A stretch of DNA of 64,000 nt. Source: a virus. The stretch's first letter is position 1; each line of letters starts with the position of its first letter. The DNA is taken from IMG/VR virus record IMGVR_UViG_3300005581_000008, positions 2,862-66,861 of that record; one strand, written 5' to 3'. The notes under the pieces are model-generated. The model was not told the DNA's origin and did not search any database. It saw only the letters and a list, made by a program, of their open reading frames with translations. Of the stretch, positions 24,779 through 38,066 are shown piece after piece. The position numbers and the translations under genes are program-made.

Positions 24779-24797
24779 TTGTTATTTTCCCTTAATC

Positions 24798-26915
24798 TTA
24801 TTGGTTCTTTAGTTTAGTCATGACATTCCAATAAGAACCTCTATAGTGCGTTCCACTAATAGTATAGTCATTTGAGTATCCAGTATTATAGCATCGACCT
24901 GTAGTTAAATCTACATAGAAACCGAACTTATTACTTGAGTGGCCAGTTGGGTAGTATTTCCAGTAAGAACGATATGTACTAATCTGAGCATGTGGATACA
25001 ATAGATTATTCTTTAGTCGATAGTTTGCAGAAATATTATCTGGATCTCTGTCTTGTCTCTCATTGTATGTATCTGTATTTCCAGAAGCCCAAGCACCACC
25101 ATTGTTTGAATACCCGCAGAAATACCAATCACCATCACTTCTCTTAACTGACATATTAGTATACGAAGAAGCACCACAATTTGATGCCATATCAACCACA
25201 TTGGTTAAAGCAGTTCCACTTCTAAATTGAGTAGCTTGTAAAGTTGAGTAGTTTGTAGTAGATGCTTGTGCCACGGATAGTTGATAGTAACCATTATACC
25301 CACAAGTATATGCAGTATTGGATGAATCTGATGATCCTCTTGTGACCATCATAGATCCGTATTGACCACCGTAGTGCCAAGCATTCCACACATCTGTTAA
25401 CTTTGTTCCACTCGGAGAAGTATTTTGTGGGGCTGCTGTCGTCACGGCAGCTGTAACACCATTATACCCTCCAGTATAAACTTCTAGAGGTAGACACACA
25501 TTATAAGTGTGGTTATGTGCAAGTTGTCCATAACCATTATAACCCCAAGTCCAAAGAGTATTATCTCTTCTAATAACTAACAGTGATACAGTAGAACCAG
25601 ATGAATTTCCACCACTAGTATTAAATTTCTTAATACCAGTTGTAGAAGTTGTACCCCATGTTTTAACAAATGTTGGTGAAGAACGATTTGTAGTATCACC
25701 AACACCTAATTGTCCGTTACCATTGTATCCTATTGCATACATCTTTCCTTGATCAGTCAAGAACCAGAAAGATCCATAGTTACCACCAGTTGCCCAGATC
25801 TCAATAATTTTACCATTGGTTGTTTGGTCAAAAGAAACTAAAGTTGGTTGGTAGTAATCTGTTGCATTACCTTGTCCCAATTGTCCATAACCATTATAAC
25901 CCCACGCATATAATTCACGAGTATCATCTGAGTTACGAATTAAAGCGTAGCAAGATCTTGTAGAAATATTACCGTCAGAAGAAGAAGCAATACGAATGGC
26001 TTTCTTAGTGCGAAGAATTGTTGTTGGACTAGTTTTATTAATACCAGCGTATCCACACTGTGTAAAATTGGTATACTGTGTAGTTTGGCCATGTCCACAA
26101 GCACCTTGAACATTATATCCTGCAGAGTGTACTTCGCCATTGTCAAATAGTACTAGAGTACCATCAAATCCGCCATCGCTTTCAATTTGAATAAGTTTTG
26201 GTGCTGCTGTGGTTGGAGAAGTTGGAAGAGAACCATCAAACCAACTCAAATGAGAGAACGATGCTTCTCCTGGAGTTTGTTGTGTTCCTGACGCTACACC
26301 AGTACCTAAATTGTAGCTAGAGTTTCTACCATAAGACATTAAACCGTATCTTCTATTAACATACTGTACTGCACCATTACCTGCTAGATTAGATCCAGGA
26401 GTTTTAAACTCACCGAAACTATCGCCCATACCAACATAACTAGTTCCAGGTACTGCAAGCGCATAAGCATCCCAAACAGTTTTATGTGTTGGTGAATAAC
26501 CTTCGTTTGGACCGAACAAATAAGCAAATTTATCTCTCATAGTCCCAGTGGAAATCTTTTTCCAATATGCAGTTTGAGTTGATGGATTCTGATTTGTACC
26601 TGTTTGAATACAGATATATGAATCTTGTTCTAGATAATTGTGGTGATCATTATAAGGTAGTGTTCTTTTATAAGTTATAATATCACCCACAGCATAAGCA
26701 GTAGCATTTGACCACTCACCAGCTTGATACACACCACCACCCATTAAATCCCAATTCGCAGTGTTTAATTCTGGAGTGGTTGAAGATGAATTGGCTACTT
26801 CACAAGCATAGTATTTGTTTTTGTAAAGAACGATGTCATCTACCAAGTATGATGTGGCTGCAACCCAAGAACCTCTTGGATTAAATCTTAGTTTACTCAA
26901 TGTTGATATTGTCAT
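24798..26915 (-). CDS. RCC1/BLIP-II repeat beta-propeller protein
   Basis: Multiple GYNGYGQL repeats; N-terminal RGSWVAATSYLVDDIV and GEWSNATAYAVGDII. Confidence 0.78.
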   Translation of the reverse strand: MTISTLSKLRFNPRGSWVAATSYLVDDIVLYKNKYYACEVANSSSTTPELNTANWDLMGGGVYQAGEWSNATAYAVGDIITYKRTLPYNDHHNYLEQDSYICIQTGTNQNPSTQTAYWKKISTGTMRDKFAYLFGPNEGYSPTHKTVWDAYALAVPGTSYVGMGDSFGEFKTPGSNLAGNGAVQYVNRRYGLMSYGRNSSYNLGTGVASGTQQTPGEASFSHLSWFDGSLPTSPTTAAPKLIQIESDGGFDGTLVLFDNGEVHSAGYNVQGACGHGQTTQYTNFTQCGYAGINKTSPTTILRTKKAIRIASSSDGNISTRSCYALIRNSDDTRELYAWGYNGYGQLGQGNATDYYQPTLVSFDQTTNGKIIEIWATGGNYGSFWFLTDQGKMYAIGYNGNGQLGVGDTTNRSSPTFVKTWGTTSTTGIKKFNTSGGNSSGSTVSLLVIRRDNTLWTWGYNGYGQLAHNHTYNVCLPLEVYTGGYNGVTAAVTTAAPQNTSPSGTKLTDVWNAWHYGGQYGSMMVTRGSSDSSNTAYTCGYNGYYQLSVAQASTTNYSTLQATQFRSGTALTNVVDMASNCGASSYTNMSVKRSDGDWYFCGYSNNGGAWASGNTDTYNERQDRDPDNISANYRLKNNLLYPHAQISTYRSYWKYYPTGHSSNKFGFYVDLTTGRCYNTGYSNDYTISGTHYRGSYWNVMTKLKNQ

Positions 26916-26925
26916 TTCCTATACC

Positions 26926-27255
26926 TTAATATGTAGCAGTTAACTGGCCAGAAGAGTTAATGGCTAGTGTTAATTTATTAGAGAAGAACGCAGTCAGCGC
27001 ATTTTCAATATTAGATACAGATGTGCTTGCTTCAGTCCCTAATATTTGATTGTGTATAAGATTACCACTACTGTCTACTGAAAGAACATTGTATCCAGAA
27101 ACTGAAACTGGAACCCAAGCAGTTCCATCCCAAATTTCTACACTGGACAGATCTGTGTTGTATCTGGTCATCCCCTGTACAGGACTTGCTGGACGCTGAG
27201 CAGTAGTACCAACACCTATGGTAACATACTGGTCGCCTAAGACTGTTGCTGGCAT
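26926..27255 (-). CDS. Small fibre-associated protein
   Basis: VGTTAQRPASPVQGMTRYNT...EIWDGTAW, a motif shared with the 835-aa fibre. Confidence 0.65.
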   Translation of the reverse strand: MPATVLGDQYVTIGVGTTAQRPASPVQGMTRYNTDLSSVEIWDGTAWVPVSVSGYNVLSVDSSGNLIHNQILGTEASTSVSNIENALTAFFSNKLTLAINSSGQLTATY

Positions 27256-28133
27256 TATTTAACTCCTTTTAATTCTTGTATCTCTTTATTTAGCTCTTTT
27301 ATCGCTTCTATTAAAAGAGGGACTAGTTTTTCGTACTGCACTGTTTTGTAATTTTCGCCTGAACGAGAAATCTCTGAACTTTCAAATAACATGATATCAA
27401 ATGGTGCAGGTTTAACAACTTCAGGGAGAACTTTTTCTACTTCACCAGCTAAAACACCGACTTGGCTTTCTTTACTAGTATAGCCAAAAGATTCTGCCAA
27501 CTGGTTTGCCGTATAAGTAACACCTCGCAAAGAACATACTTTTTCTAATGCATTTTCAATAACTTGAATATTTTCTTTTAATCGTTCGTCTGAGTAGTTA
27601 GAGCTAATATTACCAGCTGCACGAATCTCGCCACTAGTGGCAGAAGCTGCAAGCCCAACTCCTAGAGATTTAACTTGAGTGACAGAATCAGAAGCTGTTA
27701 GTGAAGTTCCATTATAGGTTAAAGCTGCAGTGGCTGAACCAAGAGCAATAGTAGTTGCAGCACCGCCAATATTAAGAGTGGTTGCCGTGGCATTAACTAG
27801 ATTAAATGTGGTCGCAGTAGTAGTAATATCACCACCATTAACTGCCAAGTCTGCAGTTATCGTGGTATTACCAGTTACGGCTAGTGTACTAGAAAGAGTG
27901 GTTGCACCAGAAGCATCTAGGGTTCCAGTAATACCGATTGAACCAGAAAGAAACCCTCCAGAACCATCTCTACGAACTACAGCATTAGCAGTATTTGTGC
28001 TAACGGCATCGGTAGTTTCTACTTTAAAGCTGTTCAGGTTTAAGAAATTGTTATCAATTTCTGAGTTTGACAATGGAAGATTCTTGACAGTTGCTCCACT
28101 GCCAGCAGTACTTCTAGTTGTTATTGAAGCCAT
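27255..28133 (-). CDS. Short fibre protein with C-terminal S74 chaperone
   Basis: YSDERLKENI...GVLAGEVEKVLPE...YEKLVPLLIEAIKEL. Confidence 0.82.
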   Translation of the reverse strand: MASITTRSTAGSGATVKNLPLSNSEIDNNFLNLNSFKVETTDAVSTNTANAVVRRDGSGGFLSGSIGITGTLDASGATTLSSTLAVTGNTTITADLAVNGGDITTTATTFNLVNATATTLNIGGAATTIALGSATAALTYNGTSLTASDSVTQVKSLGVGLAASATSGEIRAAGNISSNYSDERLKENIQVIENALEKVCSLRGVTYTANQLAESFGYTSKESQVGVLAGEVEKVLPEVVKPAPFDIMLFESSEISRSGENYKTVQYEKLVPLLIEAIKELNKEIQELKGVK

Positions 28134-28162
28134 TTTATTGGTGTTCCTATGGGTTTACAATA

Positions 28163-28176
28163 TATTTATTATTTAG
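28163..28176 (-). promoter_or_regulatory. Tandem late promoters (CTAAATA + ATAAATA)
   Basis: Minus strand reads CTAAATAATAAATA in the gap directly downstream of the radical SAM cassette. Confidence 0.6.
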
Positions 28177-28199
28177 GAGTTCTAATAAGGATGCAATTC

Positions 28200-28865
28200 T
28201 TATGCAATTTCCATATAAGAACCATCGTAATTATTTATAGAAAACTCCAAAATGTTTCGGATATTTGGGTTTCTGGAGTCTACATAAAACCTAACCATAA
28301 TCATGGGAGAATCTCCATAATTAAACGCATTATGATAGTGATAGCTATTAAAACAATATCCTCTCCCCACAGGGTAGGATTCCTCATAAACTGGGATCGG
28401 TTTATTAAAATCTGAACATCTATAATCCATATAGTGTAGCACACTAAATTTTGAATTCTCGGGCATCTGAATAGGTAACTGCCAAACAGAAATCCATTCT
28501 GGTTGTTTAGATTCTAATACATGACTATGCCAGCCTGCAGAACCATTTGGATTTATTCTTTCTATTCTAGCCAGTAAATTACCAGCACCTAAAGATAGTA
28601 GAAGTTCTCGGAGATAAGGACATTTCTTTATAGCATCAGTTTCTTTAAACTCTCCAGTCCATGCTTCTTTGGGATCAGATTTGCAATCTCCGTTAATGCT
28701 ATACAAAGCGATAGAATCCCAAGAAGATTCTATGTAACATCCAGCTTTGATATCTTCCCAACTATTATAGGGATAAAACTCTAAACCTTGTATCTCTGAT
28801 AAAATCTTAGATGCATCAAACTCAATAGGTAAAGGAAGATGTGCAATTTGACTTAGGTTATTCAA
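28200..28865 (-). CDS. Cupin-fold oxygenase (Asp/Asn beta-hydroxylase-like), TTG start
   Basis: ARIERINPNGSAGWHSH...QLPI...FNSYHYHNAFN; paralogue of 28858-29571. Confidence 0.65.
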   Translation of the reverse strand: MNNLSQIAHLPLPIEFDASKILSEIQGLEFYPYNSWEDIKAGCYIESSWDSIALYSINGDCKSDPKEAWTGEFKETDAIKKCPYLRELLLSLGAGNLLARIERINPNGSAGWHSHVLESKQPEWISVWQLPIQMPENSKFSVLHYMDYRCSDFNKPIPVYEESYPVGRGYCFNSYHYHNAFNYGDSPMIMVRFYVDSRNPNIRNILEFSINNYDGSYMEIA

Positions 28866-29571
28866 TGTAATCTCCAGTATAAGAATTCACTGCATCTTTA
28901 ACTAAATCATAAACTAAGTCATCTCTAAGGTCTGCAAAGAAACGAATTGTTAGCCTCACACCTTCTTCATCAAAATTAAATACATTGTGATAGTGGAATG
29001 CATTAAACACAACTGGAGTTGACGGTATATAACTAGCTTCGTATACCTTTGGAAGTTCCTTGCCAAAATCAACCATTCTGTATTGTTTGTTTGATATTAC
29101 AGAGTATTTAAACTTATCTGGCATCGTAATTGGTAACTGAATAATCATCATCGTCTCTGGATGATATAATTCAAAAGCATGATTATGCCAACCCATTACA
29201 GTTCCAGGATGAATCTCCTCAATCCTTGCCAACGCTTTACCACCACCCAACTGTTCAACAATTTCGTAGGTATACGGCAGATATTCAGACAAACCAGTTT
29301 TCTGAAACTGCCCCCAAATTCTTTCTAACTCTCCTGGACCAGCACCCTCTAATCTATCGCAAAATATTTCACCATTATAACTGAACAATGATAAATTGTT
29401 CCACTTACTTTTACTGTGTCCATGATTCTCTTGCATAGTAGCTGAGTATGGCATTAGCGGAAATGGACACTCACGAATCTCGTGCTCAATCCTTTCTGCA
29501 TCGTATTTAAAATTTAACGGCAGATGAGGAATTCTATTTACTTGTTCAACTAATTGCGCTATGTTTCTCAT
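28858..29571 (-). CDS. Cupin-fold oxygenase (Asp/Asn beta-hydroxylase-like)
   Basis: ARIEEIHPGTVMGWHNH...QLPI...FNAFHYHNVFN...RLTIRF. Confidence 0.65.
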   Translation of the reverse strand: MRNIAQLVEQVNRIPHLPLNFKYDAERIEHEIRECPFPLMPYSATMQENHGHSKSKWNNLSLFSYNGEIFCDRLEGAGPGELERIWGQFQKTGLSEYLPYTYEIVEQLGGGKALARIEEIHPGTVMGWHNHAFELYHPETMMIIQLPITMPDKFKYSVISNKQYRMVDFGKELPKVYEASYIPSTPVVFNAFHYHNVFNFDEEGVRLTIRFFADLRDDLVYDLVKDAVNSYTGDYIE

Positions 29572-31450
29572 TAATAAAATTTTCGTAAAAGGTTCTTATC
29601 TGATAAAATTTATCATACTTTGGAGCAGTGGAAAACTTTAAAGAATTAACTCTTTCAGCCCATTGTTCATATATTGACTCTGGTACATCTAAATTTAATT
29701 GCTCTGCTAATTCTACTAAGAATTTTAAATAATCTTCCTGAAACACTACAGCACAAGATTGAAAAATATAACTTAAATTTGCAGACACATTTGTGTGTGG
29801 TAAATTATATTCTCTAAAATCTACAATCTCTTTTCTATTACCTGAAACTAATTCTTGCATCTGATCGCTAAGGTTTCTCATAGCCAAAAGATATTTATTA
29901 TCAGTATCGGACATAACCTTTTGGTATAGATGTCTAAACAGAATAGATGGTCTACTAATTTTACCAGATGCAATATTGGCATCGATAACAATTTTGGTGA
30001 AATCAAATAATGGTCTATTGTAGACGATCCAATAATTCACAAAGAAAAACTCAGTATACTCTTCTTCAGTGTATCCGTTGGCTTTAGTCACAAACTCCAC
30101 ATCTGAGATATAGACAGGATCATCGGATATATGATATTTAGAGAACTCATCTACATCGTTAAATTCATAGCTATTTAATCTAGACTTACCAACACAAACC
30201 CTTGCAGTTTTAATACCATGTTCTTTTTTATACTCTGGATCAAAGGCAGGAGAGTCTGGTAGCAGTAACCAAATATATCGTTCAAGTTGATATCCATGTT
30301 CGTACTGAAGATCTATCTCATCGTAAAAATCTTCCTTCGTGTATCCTGGAAGTCCAAGAATGAATTCAATATCTGAACGAACATCATATGTCTTTTCCAA
30401 GTATCTGGCAAACTCAAAATCTTTTTCTCTTGGTACATCAGTTCTTTTAATGTTTCGTAAAACTTTTTGACTAATAGACTGTAAACTAATTTTGTAACGA
30501 TTAACTGCGCCACATCTTGCCAATGGTTCAATAACAGCCCATCTTGCTTCTTGTTTAGATTTCGTTATACCAAATAGTTCAACTTGAGTTGGCAACCCAT
30601 ATATGTTCTTAGACTGCTCGATATAATTTGAAACATCAACATCTTCTTTGAATATTCCATAGTTTGCGTCAACAATTTGAACACCCTCAATACCAAACTG
30701 TGGGATATAATCTAGATCTTGTTTAATCATATCCAGTGGTTTACGAATAACCTTTCCACCGATACCACCACCCCACTCGCAAAACACGCAAGCATAGGGG
30801 CATCCTCTAGATAATTCTATTGGAAGAACAAGTGGAACATTGGCTTCCATTGCCAAATCTTTGCACTTGTAAATAATATCTTCATTTCCTGGGATCATTG
30901 CCTGAGGAAATTGAAATGTAACTTTATTTGGAGTTGGTCCACGACCAGTTCTAAAGATAGAAAACCTTACCTGTTTCCAATCAATATCACCTTCAGCATA
31001 TTGATTTAACATATCCTCAATAAACCACTCACCATAACTAGTAGGTTCACAGATAGCATCTACAAATTTATGACTAAAGAACCAGTCTAGTTTATTGTGA
31101 GTTATACCTAAGTGTGGTCCACCAATTACAATAATTCGTTTCGGGTTTCTATTTTTAATCTCTTTCGCAATTGCCATAATTGCCATATGGCTCCATACAT
31201 AACTAGAAAACAAATAGATGTCAGAATCTTGTTTATCGTAATAGTTTACGATATCATCGAAACTCATTCCTTCAACATCTAAAACTGGTTCTTGCCAAAT
31301 TACATTTGACGAATACTTACCATTTTTAGTATAGTAGTTCTTGAAGTTTAACCAATGGATCGGTAACCTAATAACAGGTGATCTTAGTTCAACTGTTAAG
31401 TATGAGATTTTTATGGATTTTCTGGGTGGCTTCAACATAATCTGTTTCAC
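29546..31450 (-). CDS. Cobalamin-binding-domain radical SAM enzyme (class B-like)
   Basis: B12-domain-like FSSYVWS...IVIGGPH; ELSRGCPYACVFC (CxxxCxxC); DANYG; ILGLPG. True start may be the second Met (31438). Confidence 0.85.
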   Translation of the reverse strand: MKQIMLKPPRKSIKISYLTVELRSPVIRLPIHWLNFKNYYTKNGKYSSNVIWQEPVLDVEGMSFDDIVNYYDKQDSDIYLFSSYVWSHMAIMAIAKEIKNRNPKRIIVIGGPHLGITHNKLDWFFSHKFVDAICEPTSYGEWFIEDMLNQYAEGDIDWKQVRFSIFRTGRGPTPNKVTFQFPQAMIPGNEDIIYKCKDLAMEANVPLVLPIELSRGCPYACVFCEWGGGIGGKVIRKPLDMIKQDLDYIPQFGIEGVQIVDANYGIFKEDVDVSNYIEQSKNIYGLPTQVELFGITKSKQEARWAVIEPLARCGAVNRYKISLQSISQKVLRNIKRTDVPREKDFEFARYLEKTYDVRSDIEFILGLPGYTKEDFYDEIDLQYEHGYQLERYIWLLLPDSPAFDPEYKKEHGIKTARVCVGKSRLNSYEFNDVDEFSKYHISDDPVYISDVEFVTKANGYTEEEYTEFFFVNYWIVYNRPLFDFTKIVIDANIASGKISRPSILFRHLYQKVMSDTDNKYLLAMRNLSDQMQELVSGNRKEIVDFREYNLPHTNVSANLSYIFQSCAVVFQEDYLKFLVELAEQLNLDVPESIYEQWAERVNSLKFSTAPKYDKFYQIRTFYENFINEKHSAIS

Positions 31451-32441
31451 TGTTTATTTTAATAATTCTTGGAGCCAACTGTTTCATATGAACACAGTGC
31501 TCTTCAACCATATCATGGTGTTTTAAATCTTTAATTGTTTTCTTGCACCCATTACAAATTGCAAACATTGGGCAACCGATACACTCATCCTTTAACGAAT
31601 ATAGTTCTGGAGCATCTTGTAGTGGTGTAATAAATCCACCTTCTTTAACTTCCTTTACAAAGTTAATAGGGTATTCTTTATCATCACCCATCGCTCCACA
31701 AGAATAATAATCTCCCTCTGGATTCAATGCTCTTATATGATCATCACAATTTCTTGCTTGAGGACAAACATTGGCAATATTATTCAGACGAGTCATCATC
31801 TGTTTTGTATTAAACTCCCAATGCCAAAGATCTTTCTCGTATATCTCTATGTACGCTTCGTATATCTTACTTAGGCGATAAGGTTTATCCTGTTCACCAG
31901 AAGCCATGGCATAGTTTAACTTACATTGAACATCCATCTTCTTGGCTAACTCTACATGTTTAATTGCATGTTTCTCATTCTCTTCAGAGATAACAGCAAT
32001 AAATCCTGGGCGATAACCAATCTCTTTTAGAAACAAATTACTGACATTCCAAAAGTCTTTTTCAGTATAGACTCGGTTCTCGTTAATCTTACGACCAAAT
32101 CCATATTGAAAACTTGTGGTGACTCCGACTCTTGGATGTTTGAACAAAGGTGTCCACATCTCTGGTTTCTTGTAGAATGCCCAAAGATTAGTAGTCAATC
32201 CTAAAGTTGTTATAAGTTTGTGTTCTTCGATATAATCAAGAATCTCAAAATAATACTCTGGCTTTACCATTAATGGATCACCACCATTAACAATAATCGT
32301 ATTTGTGTTTGGAAATCTTTTTAAAAAATCGAATACATGCTGTAAATCAAGTGTGCTGGTTTTGTCTTCTACAAGTTTAGTGGATGAACAAAAGGTACAC
32401 TTAAAATTACATAGTTCCGTTGGTTTGATTATCAGTTCCAT
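31389..32441 (-). CDS. Radical SAM/SPASM-domain enzyme
   Basis: KPTELCNFKCTFC, NGGDP; C-terminal C...NPEGDYYSC...CIGCPMFAICNGC...C. Confidence 0.9.
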   Translation of the reverse strand: MELIIKPTELCNFKCTFCSSTKLVEDKTSTLDLQHVFDFLKRFPNTNTIIVNGGDPLMVKPEYYFEILDYIEEHKLITTLGLTTNLWAFYKKPEMWTPLFKHPRVGVTTSFQYGFGRKINENRVYTEKDFWNVSNLFLKEIGYRPGFIAVISEENEKHAIKHVELAKKMDVQCKLNYAMASGEQDKPYRLSKIYEAYIEIYEKDLWHWEFNTKQMMTRLNNIANVCPQARNCDDHIRALNPEGDYYSCGAMGDDKEYPINFVKEVKEGGFITPLQDAPELYSLKDECIGCPMFAICNGCKKTIKDLKHHDMVEEHCVHMKQLAPRIIKINSETDYVEATQKIHKNLILNS

Positions 32442-33414
32442 GCGTCACTTTATATTTACTAAGCCATTCTGTATTATCTTTGTTCTGTAGAATTGCGTTC
32501 CAAAAAATTGGATTTACAGAATCAAAGTTGGAAAGATTTGGGAATACCAATTGGTGTTGTGAAGCAAAGACTGGATCTAAAATGTAATCTGCAACCAACT
32601 CCCTTTTCGATAATCCCTTAATAGAATTAACGATGTCGCCATATTCTTGTGTATTATTCACTACGCTAAAGAAGTGGTTGCCATAATCATATCCATAAAC
32701 TTCTTTGATAGTATTATGGATGCCATCAACTGGCATTAATTCATTGATATCAAATTTGGTTAGATAAGAATCAATATACTCTGCGTTTGTTAAGTTTGCG
32801 ATAGTATATTCATCATTAGTCATAATTGCTGGAAGGGTCTGTTCAGCAAATTTTAACCAAAATCCTGGAGATCCATCGTACATCGCATCAACACGATCTA
32901 TACAAAAATCCAGTGACTGTTCGTCACCTTGAATTGCATTGGCATATTCTATTTCTACTCTAACATATTCTAGAGAAGCAGCAAACTCTGAAGTCTTTGG
33001 TGCTAAGTTTAATTGTTCTGGTAATTCAATACGAGTAACTTCTCTTAATCCAGTAACTTGTAGTCCATAGTTATAACTTCCAAGACCATAGTTTTCTTTT
33101 AACCTATCATAAGAATACATTTCGTTAAGAGCAGTTTCGTTTAGTACAGCACCAAAGAAAAAAGAATATACATACTGAAATGTTTCATCATCACAATATA
33201 TGATAGTTTTTACATTTGAGAAGTCTTCATGAATATCTGCAAATAATTGATCTAGTATAACAGGTGTTACAGTCTTATAAATTTTGTAGATATCAAAACA
33301 ATTGTTTATTTGAGGATCATCAATATTTTTATGATCACCAAGCCATACATGTTTAGCAGTTTCTACAATATTATTTGTAGTTGAGAGATAGCAGTTGTCG
33401 AATAGAAATATCAT
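32407..33414 (-). CDS. Hypothetical protein (radical SAM cassette), likely paralogue of 33411-34292
   Basis: Overlaps both neighbours; MIFLFDNCY and IIYCDDETF motifs. Confidence 0.7.
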   Translation of the reverse strand: MIFLFDNCYLSTTNNIVETAKHVWLGDHKNIDDPQINNCFDIYKIYKTVTPVILDQLFADIHEDFSNVKTIIYCDDETFQYVYSFFFGAVLNETALNEMYSYDRLKENYGLGSYNYGLQVTGLREVTRIELPEQLNLAPKTSEFAASLEYVRVEIEYANAIQGDEQSLDFCIDRVDAMYDGSPGFWLKFAEQTLPAIMTNDEYTIANLTNAEYIDSYLTKFDINELMPVDGIHNTIKEVYGYDYGNHFFSVVNNTQEYGDIVNSIKGLSKRELVADYILDPVFASQHQLVFPNLSNFDSVNPIFWNAILQNKDNTEWLSKYKVTHGTDNQTNGTM

Positions 33415-34292
33415 ACTAAGATACCCATTTGTTGAATTTCATGCTTTGGCATTTTTAATAACCATCGTAATAACCAAATGTCAATCTTATCGCCCATATT
33501 TTTGTTTGCCGATAACAACAGTAAAAACAGTGGATCTTTTATCATCTCTGAAATGTTATTAATGCTGTAGTATTTTAAAATAGTAGGATCTGTGAATGTA
33601 TTAAATTCTTTTCGCATTTCCATATACAAATCTTTCATAGAAACTACTGTGTCAAATGAAGCATTTCTATAATCACTAACCCAAGAATTATTCGGTTCTT
33701 TTCTTGATAAGTATTTGGCTTTCGCTTCTGGGTAGAAAGAATACACATATCGATTAACAATATTATCAATAGTGCTATAATCTCCAGAAGCCACTTTCCA
33801 TTCAACACCTGCGTTTTGTTTAACCCAAGTTTCTGATAGTTTAAATGGATCATCTTCAGGAATGTCTTCTAATGACATAAACATATCAGAAAGAACTTTT
33901 ATATTAGCTCTGCTTGTTTGAGATTGCATTAACTTTGCTCTTGTATTTAAACGAAGTGCAAAAAGTTTGGCAGCATCTAAGAAAAACTCTTTACTTAAAT
34001 TTGTAACTTGAGTTTTTAATTTAGCAGTAAAGAATTTTACAAAACTATCGTTATCAGCGTATATCACAAACGCTTGTTTATTACTTAAAACTAATTCTAG
34101 TATTCCGCTAGAAGCAAAATGTTCAAAACAAGAAAATCTTTGAAAGGCATCTTTTGGACTAGAATTGTTATAATAAAAACTATTAGTTACTACAGGAGTA
34201 TTGGTGTGGTCTTTTCCTACCACCAAATATTGTTTTGTTGGATCAAATAATTCTACAGGATAAACATAACAAGAATTAAATAAGTGTAGCAT
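33411..34292 (-). CDS. Hypothetical protein (radical SAM cassette)
   Basis: Overlaps both neighbours; MLHLFNSCY and VIYADNDSF motifs. Confidence 0.7.
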   Translation of the reverse strand: MLHLFNSCYVYPVELFDPTKQYLVVGKDHTNTPVVTNSFYYNNSSPKDAFQRFSCFEHFASSGILELVLSNKQAFVIYADNDSFVKFFTAKLKTQVTNLSKEFFLDAAKLFALRLNTRAKLMQSQTSRANIKVLSDMFMSLEDIPEDDPFKLSETWVKQNAGVEWKVASGDYSTIDNIVNRYVYSFYPEAKAKYLSRKEPNNSWVSDYRNASFDTVVSMKDLYMEMRKEFNTFTDPTILKYYSINNISEMIKDPLFLLLLSANKNMGDKIDIWLLRWLLKMPKHEIQQMGILV

Positions 34293-35037
34293 CGGCTTCT
34301 TTGATCATTGAATTTAATTGTTGTGGGGTAAATTTAGCGTCTAAAATAATTTTTAAAATTGGGAAAAACAAACATGTTTTAGAAGACAGATAATAGGTTA
34401 ATGTTTTACCAGAATATATTGGTCTATCAAAATAGAAATCAAAATATTTTAAATCGTCAAACTTTGGTAATGAACCATAGTAATGGAAATTAAATGCTTC
34501 ATTTAGTAAGATATTTACAAAAGTTTTTCCAACTTCTTGTTTCTCAGTTACAATATTATTTGTAATAAAATCGCCATGCACCTCATGATACGAATTCAAA
34601 TTCTTTATCGCTAATAGTATAATTCCATCTAGCAAATCAGCCAACTGTTTTATTAAATCTTTATTCTGTTCTACAAATAATGCAATGTCACCATTGGATA
34701 AAATACTTTTTTGAAGAAAAGGTTTATCATCTTCTGATTTATCAACTAAAGATAGATCGTATCCTTTATACAAAAATAAAGATTTAAGAACTGCTGCTTC
34801 TAATTGTTCAATATGGCATGTTGAATTGTGTTTAATAAATTCGCAAATCAAATCACTTTTTTCATCGTAAGCAATATCTGTGAAATCAATATTCAAATTT
34901 TCATATTTTAGATTACTAAGATATGTAATAAAGTTCTTACCTTTAATTTTTGAATTGGCATAGTCAATGGCTGGAGATTTTATATCTCCAGTTATAATAT
35001 GTTTTAAAACTTCAGAGTCAAATGGTATAGTGTACAT
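34276..35037 (-). CDS. Hypothetical protein (radical SAM cassette)
   Basis: Start moved from the track's 35067 to 35037 (MYTIPFD), which gives a TAATG overlap with the stop of the putative precursor gene. Confidence 0.7.
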   Translation of the reverse strand: MYTIPFDSEVLKHIITGDIKSPAIDYANSKIKGKNFITYLSNLKYENLNIDFTDIAYDEKSDLICEFIKHNSTCHIEQLEAAVLKSLFLYKGYDLSLVDKSEDDKPFLQKSILSNGDIALFVEQNKDLIKQLADLLDGIILLAIKNLNSYHEVHGDFITNNIVTEKQEVGKTFVNILLNEAFNFHYYGSLPKFDDLKYFDFYFDRPIYSGKTLTYYLSSKTCLFFPILKIILDAKFTPQQLNSMIKEADATLI

Positions 35038-35558
35038 TAAATACTTCCGTGGCAAGATCCATGGCAATTACTATGACAGTAAAATTCTTCTATGGTAACT
35101 GTGGTAGTTCTATTAGTATCTATTGCAGTTGATAGCAAAGCAACGAAAGCATCTAAATCAGAAACAGTAATAGTGTCTCCACCCTCTACTCCAATAAGAG
35201 GATCTGGCGCAATTTGATAAGTTTCACTAAGGCTAGTTATATTAGTCTCGTTAAATTGTAAAGAAGATCTTGGATTCCCACCATTTTGATACCACTTCAA
35301 TAAATTAACAGATCGTATTCTTGATAATAACTGCGCATAGTTTTTAAAATTTGTGGTTATTGTAGAAGCAACCACATTAGTATCTGAGATCTCGGAAGCA
35401 AAACTAGCAGGTATTGTTAAATCAGCTGCTGTGGCTGGTGCCTGAGAAAAAGGATTGGTCGTAGCTGACCATACAATACCAGTATTGTATAATGTCTTTA
35501 ATGCTTCCATCGATTCAACGATGTTTGCTTTTGTTATATTATCGCCAGCTGTTGTCAT
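35037..35558 (-). CDS. Putative radical SAM substrate: 173-aa protein with C-terminal (CHxx)3 core
   Basis: Ends EEFYCHSNCHGSCHGSI; all its Cys and His residues lie in the last 13 aa; overlaps the upstream SPASM enzyme gene. Confidence 0.65.
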   Translation of the reverse strand: MTTAGDNITKANIVESMEALKTLYNTGIVWSATTNPFSQAPATAADLTIPASFASEISDTNVVASTITTNFKNYAQLLSRIRSVNLLKWYQNGGNPRSSLQFNETNITSLSETYQIAPDPLIGVEGGDTITVSDLDAFVALLSTAIDTNRTTTVTIEEFYCHSNCHGSCHGSI

Positions 35559-36618
35559 TCTTTAACCTTTGCATTAGTGTTTTCGGTGCTGCACAGATAT
35601 CTCCTTGCCATTTCAATTGATGGCAGTCGCTATTGCAGATATCAAATACATCACAGGTATAGCAACGAGGGTCTCTTTCTATCTCGCATGTAATGTTATT
35701 TATTCTTCCTCTGGCGGAGAGTAAAGTTCTAATAGGTTGAGATATATCTCCAAACCCATTACCCACTGCAGCATTCGGACATCCAGCCACAGTTCCATCG
35801 GCATTAATCGTAAAGATTTTCTGTTCACAATCTCTACATCTAACTCCACCATGTATTCCCTTAGTTATAGAGGAATACACACCTTCCAGTAGGACATCTT
35901 TATATTTAGGTTTTATTGTCTGATAGGTTTCATGCATTCTAACAAACCAATCGTCTTGGTCTTTATTTGCAGGAAAGATATGTGTATTTTCTAGAGCCGA
36001 TCCATCGTGGGTTAGTCGTTCAAACTGCACCCAATTAACACCTAGCGTATTCAGCCAGAGAACTAACTCAGTGGTATCCATCTCCATTAGTTGTTTATTA
36101 AGGCTAATATTCAGTGTAATATTATGCCCAGCATCTACTACAGTTTGAAGATTCTTTCGCCAGAGGTTTTCTTGTTTATCATTCTCAAATCGAATACCTT
36201 TATCCCACGAAGTGCAGAATCCATTTTTAAGAACAGTTTTGAAAAACTGCATATGATCTTCAGTTAGATTAAAACATAGATTTGTAGAGCAAGACCAGTT
36301 AAGATTCGGGAATAATTTTGATACTTTATCCCAGACATAATACATATCATCCAGCGGAGCAAGGAATGGTTCTCCTCCATGAAATGTAATATTCCCACCA
36401 TTGAAAGATGGGCATTCCTCGTGGAGTCGTTCAAACCACTCTACAGTATGTTCGGGATTAAAGTATATCTTTTTGCCGTTGGCACCATTTGTAAAACAGT
36501 GTTGGCAATTAAGTTGACAAGTTTCTGTGGTCTTGAGATAGACCACTAAATCTTTTGGGATTAATATATCTGAAAGAGATACATCTGTCTTATGAAAGAC
36601 AATTGGTTGAGTTATCAT
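35539..36618 (-). CDS. Radical SAM/SPASM-domain enzyme
   Basis: KTTETCQLNCQHC, FHGGEP; SPASM-like C...INADGTVAGCPN...CYTCDVFDICNSDC...C. Confidence 0.92.
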   Translation of the reverse strand: MITQPIVFHKTDVSLSDILIPKDLVVYLKTTETCQLNCQHCFTNGANGKKIYFNPEHTVEWFERLHEECPSFNGGNITFHGGEPFLAPLDDMYYVWDKVSKLFPNLNWSCSTNLCFNLTEDHMQFFKTVLKNGFCTSWDKGIRFENDKQENLWRKNLQTVVDAGHNITLNISLNKQLMEMDTTELVLWLNTLGVNWVQFERLTHDGSALENTHIFPANKDQDDWFVRMHETYQTIKPKYKDVLLEGVYSSITKGIHGGVRCRDCEQKIFTINADGTVAGCPNAAVGNGFGDISQPIRTLLSARGRINNITCEIERDPRCYTCDVFDICNSDCHQLKWQGDICAAPKTLMQRLKNDNSWR

Positions 36619-36624
36619 GAAGCA

Positions 36625-37842
36625 TTATAAAATTACACATTCAACAAGTTTAACATTAACATCTTCATTTGTTTCTAATGCTATTGCAAAACTATTATTC
36701 GTATCACCGAAGAATGCTTTACCGTCTTGATTACAAATTAGTGGTTGTCCTTTACGGATTGGTCCAATAACTTTAACTGGCACACGACCACGAAGGGCAA
36801 TAGCCTGTCCTTCTAATTCATCGTTCATAATGAAAGCTGGGTTTGTAGACACAACACCAAGAACTCTTTGTCCAGAAGTATAGGAAGCAGTACCTTCAGC
36901 GTCGCCAGCAGATGCAACAACAATAACTGTTCCAGGTTCATATTCTTGATCAGTTGTATATTTTTCTGCCAAGTCAGCGTATTTAGCGGAAGTTGCAGTA
37001 CCGTAAATAGTACCAAACCTATTTACTGATTGTCCAATATCACCTGTGCCATCTGTACCAGATTTTAAAATTTGAGAAACTGTAGGAGTTTGACTCCCAT
37101 CAATAGTAATATTACCAGCAACACCATTTGCATTTGTTAATGCGATATTTGTTCCAGCAGTTAATGTTCTGGTAGTTGATGTTCCAGAACCAGTTCTAAC
37201 AACTAAACCAGTTGTTGTTAGAGCAGACAATGCAACTAACTCTGCAGAATATCCTTGCACATCTAAACCTACAACTAGTCCAAGATTAGTTCTTGCCTGT
37301 GCTGCATCAGATGCACCAGTACCGCCATCAGCAAGTGCCAAGTCAGTAATACCACTAATAGTACCACCAGTTATAGTTACACTATTAGATGCTTGCGTGG
37401 CGATGTTACCAAGTCCAAGAGCAGTTCTTGCATTGGCAGCAGTATTAGCACCAGTGCCACCATTTTCAAGTGCCACGATACCTGTAACATTGTTTGCGTT
37501 ACCACTTAAAGAACCAGTAAAAACACCAGTAACATTACCTGTTAAATTACCAACAAAAGAAGTAGCAGTAATAGTACCTGCAGCAAAATTTCCAGAAGAA
37601 TCACGACGAACAAGAGTGCTAGCAGTATTAGTAGTGGCTTGTTCAAAACCATCAACAGTGTCCGCATCTAAACCAGAGCCAGACCCATCTACTGTTTTAA
37701 TTTTAGTTAAAACATCAGCAGCTGTATACAAGGCGGAATCTAGTTTAGATCCAACCTCAGTGTTTAGGTTACTGAAATTAGCATCTGCCTCTGCAATCGT
37801 TAATGGACTGCCTTTAGTTGTTCTTAATACGATTACCGCCAT
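36625..37842 (-). CDS. Fibre protein with C-terminal auto-cleaving chaperone-like domain
   Basis: KGSPLTIAEADANFSNLN head; GSGLDADTVDG; GGTGA...ARTxLG repeats; YADLAEKY...GVVSTNPA...LRGRVPVKV. Confidence 0.78.
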   Translation of the reverse strand: MAVIVLRTTKGSPLTIAEADANFSNLNTEVGSKLDSALYTAADVLTKIKTVDGSGSGLDADTVDGFEQATTNTASTLVRRDSSGNFAAGTITATSFVGNLTGNVTGVFTGSLSGNANNVTGIVALENGGTGANTAANARTALGLGNIATQASNSVTITGGTISGITDLALADGGTGASDAAQARTNLGLVVGLDVQGYSAELVALSALTTTGLVVRTGSGTSTTRTLTAGTNIALTNANGVAGNITIDGSQTPTVSQILKSGTDGTGDIGQSVNRFGTIYGTATSAKYADLAEKYTTDQEYEPGTVIVVASAGDAEGTASYTSGQRVLGVVSTNPAFIMNDELEGQAIALRGRVPVKVIGPIRKGQPLICNQDGKAFFGDTNNSFAIALETNEDVNVKLVECVIL

Positions 37843-38066
37843 TATCGTTCCTTATTGATAAGAGAGATTAATAATTGTTTAATCTCTGCAACATCTGTTT
37901 TTAAATTTTGTATATCATTAGAGTTTGAACTAATCTTTTCTTGCAAACTCTTTTGGGCATTCATCTTAGCCATATAATTCATATAATCAGTGGCATTAGT
38001 ATTTATCACTGCGCCACTAGATATATCTCTAGCTAACCCATCTTTGTCTTTTATTTTTACTAACAT
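37842..38066 (-). CDS. Small coiled-coil protein
   Basis: LARDISSGAVIN...IQNLKTDVAEIKQLL; start placed at the TAATG overlap (38066). Confidence 0.65.
   Translation of the reverse strand: MLVKIKDKDGLARDISSGAVINTNATDYMNYMAKMNAQKSLQEKISSNSNDIQNLKTDVAEIKQLLISLINKER

What the first reader, a model, noticed from the sequence alone, without database searches (positions are those of the whole stretch)
28200..36618. Phage-encoded RiPP-like radical SAM modification cassette inside the virion structural operon
Seen: nine co-oriented genes, each overlapping the next, in transcription order SPASM rSAM, (CHxx)3-tailed 173-aa protein, three unknowns, second SPASM rSAM, B12-domain rSAM, two cupin oxygenases. 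The cassette starts 6 nt after a fibre gene, so there is no intergenic room for its own promoter, and late promoters resume right after it (28163-28176). Established: SPASM rSAM enzymes form thioether (sacti-/ranthipeptide) or cyclophane (triceptide) crosslinks in peptides; class B B12-rSAMs methylate unactivated carbons; such enzyme sets typify RiPP clusters. Inference: the phage expresses a multi-enzyme post-translational pathway during morphogenesis, to crosslink, methylate or oxidise a virion protein or to release a modified peptide. I do not know of a characterised phage system like this.
Basis: partly seen in the sequence, partly recalled or inferred. Interest (0 to 1): 0.95.

Follow-up and report, generated by a model that had tools for sequence, protein, structure and literature searches.

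The report
Radical-SAM cassette for Cys-His-tailed phage protein
A freshwater T4-like phage carries, between two tail-fibre genes, a set of iron-sulfur radical enzymes that always travels with a small protein ending in three Cys-His-x-Ser repeats; the enzymes probably modify that tail chemically, a finishing step that I found in no paper for any virus.

Summary
Nine overlapping minus-strand genes (28200-36618) lie between two fibre genes. They are two SPASM radical SAM enzymes (g1, g6), a B12-type radical SAM enzyme (g7), two weakly AspH-like cupins (g8, g9), three proteins without a recognisable fold or family (g3-g5), and a 173-aa protein (g2) whose only Cys and His residues form its last 13 residues.

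The pairing is not chance. In 62 of 63 related viral loci with enough sequence, a (CH..)-tailed protein follows the g1 homologue. The tail family has 835 clusters at 50% identity. Of the 150 best, 144 carry CHxxCHxxCH.

The conserved core is rSAM-A, the tailed protein, g3, a c7-family protein (g4 and g5 are divergent copies) and rSAM-B. It occurs in T4-like phages, jumbo phages (Atu_ph07, RSL2) and Bdellovibrionota MAGs, usually beside fibre genes.

This window holds a reduced variant. The tail ends in I/L instead of RGRR, rSAM-C, rSAM-D and the upstream cupin are missing, and two AspH-like genes are present.

Best reading: the enzymes mature the g2 tail, and g2 is a fibre- or baseplate-associated protein. 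The chemistry and the virion location are inferred, not shown. The closest described analogue is the bacterial HXS defence system, but membership tests failed.

This scan had already noted the same cassette on other DNA: 68 notes in at least 43 genomes. My literature searches found no paper describing it.

The parts
35539..36618 (-). g1, rSAM-A: radical SAM/SPASM enzyme, 359 aa, directly upstream of the tailed protein
   Evidence: CX3CX2C at residue 34 and the full SPASM Cys pattern at 261-342. phrog_1802 at 1.4e-56. Homologues at 39-48% identity in 15 jumbo-phage records. 207 viral relatives.
35037..35558 (-). g2, tailed protein (TAILP), 173 aa: folded body plus C-terminal (Cys-His-x-Ser/Asn)x3 tail; the candidate substrate
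   Evidence: AF2 model has pLDDT 80.4 and pTM 0.71, with the last blocks at 63 and 48. No known fold was found.
35040..35078 (-). Codons for the tail core, residues 161-173 (CHSN-CHGS-CHGS-I)
   Evidence: Cys 161/165/169 and His 162/166/170 are the only Cys and His in g2. C161, H162, C165, H166 and H170 are invariant and C169 is kept in 90% or more of 39 aligned relatives.
34276..35067 (-). g3, conserved accessory protein (phrog_20767), function unknown; likely true start is the ATG at 35037
   Evidence: phrog_20767 at 1.3e-26. Present in 63 loci. AF2 pLDDT 87.2 and pTM 0.85. No fold match.
33411..34292 (-). g4, divergent member of the c7 accessory family
   Evidence: hhalign of c7 against g4 gives probability 98.3%, E 1.3e-14. 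No Pfam, PHROG or NCBIfam hit.
32407..33414 (-). g5, second divergent member of the c7 accessory family
   Evidence: hhalign of c7 against g5 gives 97.3%; g4 against g5 gives 82.4%.
31389..32441 (-). g6, rSAM-B: second radical SAM/SPASM enzyme, 350 aa
   Evidence: Radical_SAM 38.6 bits. DynA-like over its full length at 53.9 bits. Cys motifs. Orthologues in Atu_ph07 and RSL2 at 53-59% identity.
29546..31450 (-). g7, B12-binding-domain radical SAM enzyme (class B methyltransferase type), 634 aa
   Evidence: Radical_SAM 47.1 bits and B12-binding 24.7 bits. KedN5 subfamily at 3.4e-36 but far below its cut-off. TokK 2.3e-28 and CysS 2.2e-26.
28858..29571 (-). g8, cupin-type protein, distantly AspH-like
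   Evidence: Invariant H129, H131, E134, H193 and H195 in the 11-member alignment.
28200..28865 (-). g9, paralogue of g8 (37% identity)
36625..37842 (-). Upstream fibre gene, 405 aa, 6 nt before g1; its family (FIB) precedes the cassette in most related loci
   Evidence: Fibre PHROGs. Peptidase_G2 IMC weakly, E 0.0024. Synteny.
27255..28133 (-). Downstream fibre gene, 292 aa, with a Peptidase_S74 intramolecular chaperone domain
   Evidence: phrog_5668 at 2.3e-29. PF13884 at 2.3e-14.

Best explanation
The block is a protein-maturation cassette. Its substrate is the disordered C-terminal tail of g2, (Cys-His-x-Ser/Asn)x3.

Proposed sequence of events, all inferred:
1. g2 is made together with the neighbouring fibre genes.
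2. The two SPASM radical SAM enzymes, g1 (rSAM-A, encoded directly upstream of g2 with a 20-nt overlap) and g6 (rSAM-B), abstract hydrogen atoms from tail residues and install cross-links. The most likely products are three-residue His-C2-to-C-beta cyclophanes on each H-x-S/N, as made by His-specific triceptide synthases, and/or Cys thioethers.
3. The B12-type enzyme g7 adds methyl groups to unactivated carbons.
4. The AspH-like cupins g8 and g9 hydroxylate a residue.
5. g3, g4 and g5 are non-enzymatic helpers that hold or present g2.
6. The finished protein joins the fibre/baseplate apparatus as a host-contact component.

What is shown: the gene set, the motifs and the conserved co-occurrence. 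What is inferred: that g2 is the substrate, every chemical step and the virion location.
For: (1) Co-occurrence. One search found 207 viral relatives of g1 and kept 80 loci. I dropped L041, which duplicates Atu_ph07. Of the remaining 79 loci, 63 have 700 nt or more after rSAM-A. Of those 63, 62 encode a protein with a (CH..) tail, 54 as the very next gene and the rest as the second gene. The one miss is cut by the contig end.

(2) Constraint is concentrated on the tail. In 39 relatives at 15-65% identity, the only invariant columns are C161, H162, C165, H166 and H170. The profile finds 835 clusters at 50% identity. Of the best 150, 144 have CHxxCHxxCH in the last 30 residues, and position 4 of each repeat is Ser or Asn in 139-143 of those 144.

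(3) The tail is terminal and modelled with low confidence, on a confident body. That would leave it accessible to enzymes.

(4) One relative (P0136) carries an intein-like insertion inside the CHSSC motif. Splicing blocks are visible in the sequence and it hits a DnaE intein at E 8.3e-4. Inteins usually sit in strongly conserved sites (established knowledge).

(5) Enzyme type. Both SPASM patterns are intact. The nearest families are peptide and protein maturases.

(6) Precedents. His-C2-to-C-beta cross-links on H-x-x motifs by rSAM/SPASM enzymes (PMC11499958, passages). rSAM maturation of a His-x-Ser repeat protein, HxsA (PMC13128918, sections 9-10). SPASM thioethers on a whole protein, CrpA (PMC13692751, abstract).

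(7) Link to fibres across great distance. FIB-family or other fibre-like genes precede the cassette in T4-like loci, jumbo phages and Bdellovibrionota MAGs. In L088 the cassette lies beside a Peptidase_S74 fibre gene among cellular metabolic genes on a 382-kb contig. One relative is fused to a Gly_rich_2 domain.

(8) The Atu_ph07 paper places most virion proteins in CDS 170-215, and gp170 is the tailed protein (section 29).

(9) Contigs from four freshwater RNA libraries lie on the cassette and bridge the g1/g2, g4/g5 and g9/fibre junctions. DNA carry-over in those libraries is not excluded.
Against: No modification has been observed.

The SPASM enzymes score far below every curated maturase cut-off, for example DarE 35.6 against 650 and DynA 53.9 against 450. 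Their chemistry therefore cannot be read from homology.

The B12 enzyme's nearest solved relatives modify small molecules.

No RRE/PqqD-like recognition domain was detected in any of the nine proteins.

Virion location is not demonstrated. The Atu_ph07 protein list is in a supplement I could not open. In RSL2, FLC6 and S13 the tailed protein is not among the proteins annotated as structural.

Three Cys plus three His could simply bind a metal or a cluster, with no modification.

Radical SAM enzymes are oxygen-sensitive and the cupins need O2, which is an awkward combination in oxic fresh water.

An earlier check of the same claim on other DNA is recorded as 'part of it fell', without saying which part.
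Confidence: 0.55

Rival explanations
1. Released peptide (a true RiPP). The 160-residue body of g2 acts as a very long leader. The modified 13-residue core is cut off and acts as a free molecule, for example a metallophore, toxin or signal.
For: The enzyme set resembles RiPP clusters. The core is C-terminal, repeated and short. The usual RGRR end of other clades could be a processing or export mark.
Against: I recognised no protease or transporter in the window's cassette. The body is confidently folded. It takes domain insertions and an N-terminal Gly_rich_2 fusion, which is how a functional domain behaves, not a disposable leader. The cassette keeps company with fibre genes in phages and predators.
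Confidence: 0.12
2. Metal- or cluster-binding tail. The Cys3His3 end binds Fe, Zn, Cu or an Fe-S cluster. It would act either as a clasp in an oligomer or as a dedicated electron donor for the radical SAM enzymes, which then act on something else (the fibres or a small molecule).
For: Only Cys and His are invariant. Radical SAM enzymes need a reductant (established knowledge). His-lined metal sites are known in T4 fibre proteins (recalled, not tested). TokK/CysS-like g7 points to small-molecule chemistry.
Against: Position 4 of each repeat is also constrained to Ser or Asn in 139-143 of 144, which a pure Cys/His ligand set does not explain. A reductant would not be expected to carry variable insertions and fibre-type fusions. 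The one-to-one pairing and adjacency with rSAM-A are typical of an enzyme and its substrate. No alternative conserved substrate motif was seen in the FIB proteins, which vary from 405 to 1127 aa.
Confidence: 0.12
3. Small-molecule, cofactor or nucleic-acid pathway. The enzymes build or modify a metabolite or the phage DNA, and g2 is a bystander or carrier.
For: g7 is closest to TokK, CysS and KedN5. In RSL2, DHFR-like genes sit inside the cassette. rSAM-B homologues have been annotated MoaA in some records.
Against: Matches to MoaA, QueE and viperin cover only the N-terminal cluster-binding part. Full-length matches are to SPASM peptide and protein maturases. I recognised no nucleotide- or sugar-handling gene in the window's cassette. 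This reading leaves the invariant tail next to rSAM-A unexplained.
Confidence: 0.08
4. HXS-like exclusion factor. The cassette is a phage-borne cousin of the bacterial HXS defence system. Matured g2 would block DNA entry of competing phages into the infected cell.
For: His-x-Ser repeats plus paired radical SAM enzymes plus small helper proteins mirror HxsA/B/C/D. Most clades end in basic RGRR, and DNA binding by basic HxS repeats is the model proposed for HxsA.
Against: No HxsA, HxsB, HxsC or HxsD model is met; HxsC scores 31.7 against 267.9, on the N-terminus only. PADLOC gives only generic rSAM-core matches. No peptidoglycan-binding domain was found in g2, and I see no hydrophobic N-terminal signal in its sequence (by eye, no predictor run). 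The position between fibre genes does not suit an early exclusion gene. The window's clade lacks the basic end.
Confidence: 0.06

Closest known systems
HXS antiphage system (HxsA effector with HxsB, HxsC, HxsD; Li et al., Nat Commun 2026, PMC13128918; sections 9 and 10 read)
   Same: A folded protein carrying His-x-Ser repeats is encoded with two radical SAM enzymes and a small helper. The enzymes are needed for a covalent change mapped to an HxS motif (+8 Da on SHRSS).
   Different: - The repeats here have period 4, with an invariant Cys, and lie at the extreme C-terminus.
- No peptidoglycan-binding domain was found and no signal peptide is apparent.
- None of the Hxs NCBIfam models is met.
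- The context is phage fibre genes, not a four-gene defence island.
- Extra enzymes are present: B12-rSAM and cupins.
His-specific triceptide synthases HaaB, HtkB and YhhB (three-residue cyclophane-forming rSAM/SPASM enzymes; PMC11499958, passages read)
   Same: These are SPASM radical SAM enzymes acting on repeated aromatic-X-X motifs. His-C2 to C-beta of residue 3 is an established product. H-x-S/N occurs three times in the g2 tail.
   Different: Their substrates are short precursor peptides with leaders. g1 and g6 score only 20-24 bits on YhhB and AmcB, against cut-offs of 445 and 425. The Cys in every repeat has no counterpart. No cross-link has been demonstrated here.
CrpC/CrpA of Methanococcus voltae (PMC13692751, abstract read), and from recall QhpD/QhpC and anSME
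   Same: A SPASM radical SAM enzyme modifies Cys residues of a whole protein rather than a short peptide. anSME is among the best solved matches to the g1 profile (8.7e-6, full length).
   Different: The substrate family and motif differ. No C/S-x-P/A-x-R sulfatase motif is present (the motif is recalled). The setting is viral, with several enzymes acting together.
Radical SAM gene cassettes noted in the 'host recognition cluster' downstream of VrlC in pelagimyophages (PMC7029224, passages read)
   Same: Same genomic place (after VrlC, among fibre genes) and same kind of phage.
   Different: That paper only mentions the cassettes as variable content. It describes no tailed protein, no conserved core and no proposed function.

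Membership tests
Radical SAM superfamily | CX3CX2C cluster motif in a partial TIM barrel | tested here: met
   The motif starts at residue 34 (g1), 11 (g6) and 217 (g7). PF04055 scores 24.8, 38.6 and 47.1 bits against a cut-off of 29.5, so g1 is below it, but g1 hits phrog_1802 at 1.4e-56.
SPASM subfamily | C-terminal seven-Cys pattern CX9-15GX4C ... CX2CX5CX3C ... C for two auxiliary clusters | tested here: met
   g1 has C261/264...G275...C280, C319-C322-C328-C332 and C342; these positions are invariant or nearly invariant in 33 homologues. g6 has the same pattern with CX2 in the last step. TIGR04085 scores 23.2 and 25.0 bits, just under its cut-off of 27.
Class B (cobalamin-dependent) radical SAM methyltransferases | N-terminal B12-binding domain followed by the rSAM core | tested here: inconclusive
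   PF02310 scores 24.7 bits, below 32.1, on residues 63-119. KedN5 subfamily scores 124.6 bits against a cut-off of 700. TokK 2.3e-28 and CysS 2.2e-26 over residues 64-416. The architecture fits; cofactor binding is not testable here.
HXS system | HxsA (TIGR03979), with peptidoglycan-binding domain and tandem HxS repeats | tested here: not met
   g2 hits no NCBIfam family at E 0.1 or better and no Pfam domain of that kind. H-x-S/N is present three times, but spaced by Cys.
HXS system | HxsB and HxsC radical SAM maturases, and HxsD | tested here: not met
   HxsC TIGR03977 scores 31.7 bits against 267.9 for g6, on residues 8-91 only. No Hxs model appears among the 25 listed hits of 42 for g1. 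g3-g5 have no hit.
Triceptides (3-residue cyclophane RiPPs) | Aromatic-X-X motif in the substrate | tested here: met
   H-x-S/N occurs three times in g2 and is conserved in 144 of 150 relatives.
Triceptides (3-residue cyclophane RiPPs) | Maturase belongs to a 3-CyFE family; aromatic-to-C-beta cross-link (-2 Da) | tested here: not met
   YhhB NF041707 scores 20.0 bits against 445 (g1). AmcB NF041718 scores 23.6 against 425 (g6). ChlB matches the g1 profile at the N-terminus only. The cross-link itself is not testable with these tools.
Sacti-/ranthipeptide systems | Cys-rich core, a SPASM maturase of a known family, and an RRE/PqqD-like leader-binding domain | tested here: not met
   The core has three Cys. 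PapB scores 20.9 against 340 and RumMC 20.1 against 720. No PqqD/RRE hit in any of the nine proteins.
Aspartyl/asparaginyl beta-hydroxylase-type cupins (PF05118) | Match to the family model; double-stranded beta-helix with His ligands | tested here: inconclusive
   g8 and g9 themselves have no hit. Of 11 family members, 6 hit PF05118 (best 3.9e-4), 3 hit 2OG-FeII_Oxy_5 and 2 hit Cupin_2. Atlas feature score 0.96. Invariant H129, H131, E134, H193 and H195. No solved relative by sequence. No structure was predicted.
Virion structural protein (for g2) | Detected in purified particles, or homologous to a known structural fold | not testable with these tools
   No fold match in PDB. Only uncharacterised family members in the viral library. 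The Atu_ph07 paper says virion proteins cluster in CDS 170-215, but the list is in a closed supplement.

The most novel reading that the evidence does not exclude
Phages of several unrelated lineages and predatory Bdellovibrionota share a dedicated radical-enzyme pathway. It turns the Cys-His-x-Ser tail of a fibre-associated protein into a cross-linked, possibly metal-binding or redox-active structure that is used at the prey or host surface. This would be the first virion component finished by RiPP-type radical chemistry, and a piece of cell-attack equipment common to viruses and bacterial predators. The window's clade would show the minimal working kit: rSAM-A, rSAM-B, g3 and c7 helpers, plus B12 and AspH-like tailoring.
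Probability: 0.35. Interest if true: 0.9.

Novelty: new variant of a known kind. Interest (0 to 1): 0.8.

Why it matters
Radical SAM/SPASM chemistry is known from peptide antibiotics, cofactor synthesis and a few protein maturations. It is not known from virus particles.

Here a large, strictly conserved family (835 clusters at 50% identity) ties that chemistry to the host-recognition region of abundant aquatic T4-like phages, of jumbo phages of plant pathogens, and of predatory bacteria.

If the tail is modified and sits on the fibre or baseplate, several things follow:
- It adds an enzymatic finishing step to phage assembly.
- It gives a new substrate motif and up to five new rSAM families to enzymology.
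- It may explain part of the unexplained gene content of 'host recognition clusters'.
- It offers a testable link to the recently described HXS defence system, which uses the same His-x-Ser-plus-rSAM logic on the bacterial side.

Tried and rejected
**Searches that found nothing**
- Megablast of the whole block against phage records: no match.
- tblastn of g7: no match.
- tblastn of g2: only marginal hits, E 0.06-0.1, to Atu_ph07 and pPa_SNUABM_DT01, plus chance hits to mycobacteriophage scaffold genes.
- tblastn of a typical RGRR-type tailed protein (from L046): no match.

**Folds**
- g2 model: Foldseek against PDB gave nothing at E 0.001 or better. VIA-align wide gave a best Z of 5.5, within the range the tool calls common. 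The viral library returned only uncharacterised relatives.
- g3 model: nothing in PDB. Best Z was 3.4. The low rows to the C-terminal halves of ChlB, anSME and SuiB made me test whether g3 and c7 are decayed radical SAM proteins. hhalign says no, at 3.7% or less. Only family c15, which is absent from the window, is rSAM-like (94.5% to rSAM-D).
- The Atlas gave no usable hit for g3.

**Binding of g1 and g2**
- Complex prediction returned 'no answer' (score 0.02 against a mark of 0.32; controls were not run). This is evidence neither way.

**Promoters**
- The sigma-70-type scan was no better than shuffles (48 found against a mean of 50.9). Terminator-like sites were 8 against 5.1.
- TATAAATA occurs twice against 8.7 expected. 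ATAAATA occurs 16 times against 29.9 expected.
- I therefore make no promoter claim.

**Other**
- Defence libraries: PADLOC gives only generic rSAM-core matches (viperin N-terminus, PDC-M51A).
- The cupin profile against PDB sequences gave nothing meaningful.
- Own record: no rSAM-C found. The record is a 66.9-kb fragment with estimated completeness 41%, so this shows nothing. The tailed protein is found once.

**Virion proteomics**
- The RP12/RP31 paper, the FLC6 paper, the S13 paper and the Atu_ph07 paper do not name the tailed protein in their main text.
- The decisive tables are supplements (Table S5 of PMC6102473, Table S3 of PMC5468394).

**RNA libraries**
- Parts of the block without contig cover, and the fibre/g1 junction at 36618-36625 for which no listed contig bridges, allow no conclusion.

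**Rejected idea**
- The noursin paper concerns a lanthipeptide synthetase and does not bear on this cassette.

Full report
**What is there.** The window is part of a 66.9-kb viral record with estimated completeness 41%. It comes from a freshwater T4-like myovirus. Its 2188-aa VrlC-type baseplate protein is 43.5% identical to that of Synechococcus phage BUCT-ZZ01 and 36-40% identical to those of pelagiphages. The DNA recurs in freshwater metagenome runs. From about 60900 down to about 500 almost every gene is on the minus strand.

Each overlaps the next by 4-62 nt with the longest-ORF starts. g1 starts 6 nt after the stop of a 405-aa fibre gene. A 66-nt gap follows g9, before a 292-aa fibre gene with a Peptidase_S74 chaperone domain.

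**The proteins.**
- g1 and g6 are radical SAM enzymes with intact SPASM cysteine patterns. Their curated-family scores are all far below cut-off. The best full-length matches are darobactin and dynobactin maturases (35.6 and 53.9 bits). For the g1 profile the best solved matches are the protein 8vpo, anSME and the triceptide synthase ChlB.
- g7 has a weak B12-binding match followed by a radical SAM core. It is closest to TokK and CysS.
- g8 and g9 are paralogues (37% identity) with invariant H-x-H-x-x-E and H-x-H motifs. They have no Pfam hit themselves, but 6 of 11 members of their family touch PF05118 (best 3.9e-4). The Atlas places g8 beside viral AspH-like clusters (0.96).
- g3 hits only the unannotated phrog_20767. 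Its confident model (pLDDT 87.2) matches no solved fold.
- g4 and g5 have no library hit. Profile comparison shows both to be divergent members of one accessory family, c7 (98.3% and 97.3%).
- g2 is a 173-aa protein whose only Cys (161, 165, 169) and His (162, 166, 170) residues form the last 13 residues. Its body is modelled with confidence (pLDDT 80.4, pTM 0.71) and the tail is not. No known fold was found.

**Is the pairing real?** A scan of viral contigs with a g1 alignment found 207 relatives, of which 80 loci were kept. I called ORFs in all of them and clustered the products.
- I left out L041, which is Atu_ph07 again. That leaves 79 loci, of which 63 have at least 700 nt after the g1 homologue.
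- Of those 63, 62 encode a protein ending in repeated CH.. units. It is the next gene in 54 loci and the second gene in the others. The single miss is truncated by the contig end.
- In an alignment of 39 such proteins, sharing 15-65% identity with g2, the only invariant columns are C161, H162, C165, H166 and H170.
- A profile search of 1.84 billion representatives found 835 clusters at E 0.001 or better (546 at 1e-10). Of the 150 best, 144 carry CHxxCHxxCH in their last 30 residues.
- Position 4 of each repeat is Ser or Asn in 139-143 of those 144. In 130 of them the tail is exactly 16 residues long, and Arg dominates its last four positions (consensus RGRR).
- The six exceptions keep two CH units, or an H-S-N variant.
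- One relative, P0136, has a roughly 130-residue insertion inside the CHSSC motif. It begins with Cys, contains a T-x-x-H block, ends in Ser-Asn before the next Cys, and hits a DnaE intein (E 8.3e-4). I read it as an intein sitting in the motif.

**The cassette as a whole.** Clustering and gene maps show a conserved core of rSAM-A (g1), the tailed protein, g3, one or more c7 proteins and rSAM-B (g6). Most loci add:
- an upstream cupin, c9 (Cupin_2, with a weak JmjC_2 match);
- two further SPASM-type families, rSAM-C and rSAM-D;
- sometimes a fifth rSAM-like family, c15;
- a B12-rSAM;
- several 2OG-Fe(II) oxygenases, c6 and c8;
- a small protein, c12.

The same core is present in Agrobacterium phage Atu_ph07 and Ralstonia phage RSL2.

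**How the window's clade differs.** I compared loci with at least 8 kb after the tailed gene.

| Feature | Arg-rich tail end (36 loci) | I/L tail end, window included (9 loci) |
|---|---|---|
| rSAM-C | 35 | 0 |
| rSAM-D | 29 | 0 |
| c9 cupin | 31 | 0 |
| c12 | 24 | 0 |
| c6/c8 oxygenases | 32 | 1 |
| B12-rSAM | 16 | 9 |
| AspH-like pair | 0 | 9 |

This is one clade, so it is probably one evolutionary event. Because the window's record is incomplete, the missing genes could lie elsewhere in the genome. Taken at face value, rSAM-A, rSAM-B, g3 and c7 are the part tied to the (CHxS)3 repeats. The lost enzymes may serve the Arg-rich end.

**Context.**
- In T4-like loci the order VrlC, a 72-97-aa protein, a FIB-family fibre gene, (c9), rSAM-A recurs even where VrlC identity is only 25-37%.
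- In jumbo phages a FIB-family or other fibre-like gene also precedes the cassette.
- A pattern scan of one genome per prokaryotic species found 7 loci. Five are from Bdellovibrionota MAGs.
- In three of those (L084, L086, L088) the full kit is present with an RGRR tail. In L086 and L088 it lies next to fibre-like genes with Peptidase_S74 domains.
- In L088 it sits on a 382-kb contig among acyl-CoA dehydrogenase, 3-hydroxyacyl-CoA dehydrogenase and other cellular genes. That is a cellular setting, not an obvious prophage.
- I took the predatory-bacteria lead from earlier notes of this scan and verified it here.
- Relatives of g2 with internal insertions, and one with an N-terminal Gly_rich_2 domain (E 7e-11), also behave like surface or structural proteins.

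**Expression and particle location.**
- Contigs from four freshwater metatranscriptome runs (four studies) lie on 18-25 of 30 bins of 26001-39000. Single contigs bridge the g1/g2, g4/g5 and g9/fibre junctions. The tool warns that DNA can be present in such libraries, so this is only a weak sign of transcription.
- For the virion question, the Atu_ph07 paper states that most of its 131 particle proteins are encoded in CDS 31-76, 170-215 and 284-329 (section 29). gp170 is the tailed protein, so the cluster boundary falls on it. The list itself is in a closed supplement.
- I therefore treat virion association as inferred.

**Mechanism.** The most economical reading is that the tail is the substrate. 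Three precedents bear on the chemistry.
1. rSAM/SPASM triceptide synthases form His-C2 to C-beta bonds on H-x-x motifs (HTK, HAA, HNR; PMC11499958). Each repeat here contains H-x-S/N, with position 3 of that motif constrained.
2. In the HXS system, two radical SAM enzymes are required for a covalent change mapped to an S-H-R-S-S motif of a His-x-Ser repeat protein (PMC13128918).
3. SPASM enzymes install Cys thioethers even on whole proteins (PMC13692751).

I therefore propose cyclophane and/or thioether cross-links by g1 and g6, C-methylation by g7, and hydroxylation by g8 and g9. g3-g5 would act as presenting or assembly factors. None of these steps is shown.

Membership in HXS, triceptide, ranthipeptide or sactipeptide families was tested with the curated models and is not met. 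The resemblance is functional logic, not family membership.

**Rivals.** I considered four: a released RiPP, a metal- or cluster-binding tail, a small-molecule or nucleic-acid pathway, and an HXS-like exclusion factor. Each is set out in its own section with its evidence. Together I give them about 0.4.

**Prior knowledge.**
- My literature searches returned no description of the tailed family or of its link to radical SAM enzymes. The searches were: radical SAM with jumbo phage; RiPP, phage-encoded, SPASM; radical SAM with VrlC; Atu_ph07 with radical SAM; SPASM, bacteriophage, tail fiber.
- Phage genome papers list the enzymes as annotations only.
- The pelagimyophage study mentions radical SAM cassettes as variable content of the host recognition cluster.
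- Earlier notes of this scan describe the same cassette on other DNA: 68 notes in at least 43 genomes. One related claim is marked 'part of it fell' without detail. I counted none of this as evidence.

**Verdict.** This is a new variant of a known kind (radical SAM maturation of a protein), in a setting (phage host-recognition module, shared with bacterial predators) where it has not been described. Interest 0.8.

Noticed in passing
P0136 (protein), residues about 176-306: An intein-like insertion sits inside the CHSSC repeat of a tailed-protein relative. It starts with Cys, has a T-x-x-H block, and ends in Ser-Asn before the next Cys. It hits a DnaE intein at E 8.3e-4; Pfam found nothing.
   Followed up: partly
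L084, L086, L088 (Bdellovibrionota MAG contigs): The complete cassette, with an RGRR-tailed protein and rSAM-A to rSAM-D, occurs in predatory-bacteria MAGs. In L086 and L088 it lies next to Peptidase_S74 fibre-like genes. In L088 it lies among cellular metabolic genes on a 382-kb contig.
   Followed up: partly
window 22208-26915, minus strand: Two paralogous large proteins (856 and 705 aa) lie downstream of the fibre genes. The 705-aa one has RCC1 repeats and a weak CBM_5_12 match, so it is a possible receptor-binding propeller protein.
   Followed up: no
window 35697-35703, 29892-29898, 28232-28238 (minus strand): ATAAATA motifs, the core of T4-type late promoters as I recall it, lie inside g1 (about 140 nt before the g2 start), inside g7 and inside g9. 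The motif is under-represented in the window overall (16 against 29.9 expected).
   Followed up: no
window 35037: g3 probably starts at the ATG at 35037, overlapping the g2 stop by one base, rather than at the TTG at 35067. The Atlas holds the protein from residue 11.
   Followed up: partly
L038, L050, L052, L054, L071, L073, L080, L084, L086, L087 (family c15): A fifth family of about 350 aa in many cassettes is a distant radical-SAM-like protein (hhalign 94.5% to rSAM-D). It is absent from the window.
   Followed up: partly
L002 15033-16182 (RSL2 ORF073 and ORF074): A dihydrofolate reductase gene and a second DHFR-like gene sit inside the RSL2 version of the cassette, between radical SAM genes. 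This is unexplained.
   Followed up: no
window 32001-36000: GC content is lowest in the window here (0.32, against 0.34-0.41 elsewhere), over g1-g5.
   Followed up: no
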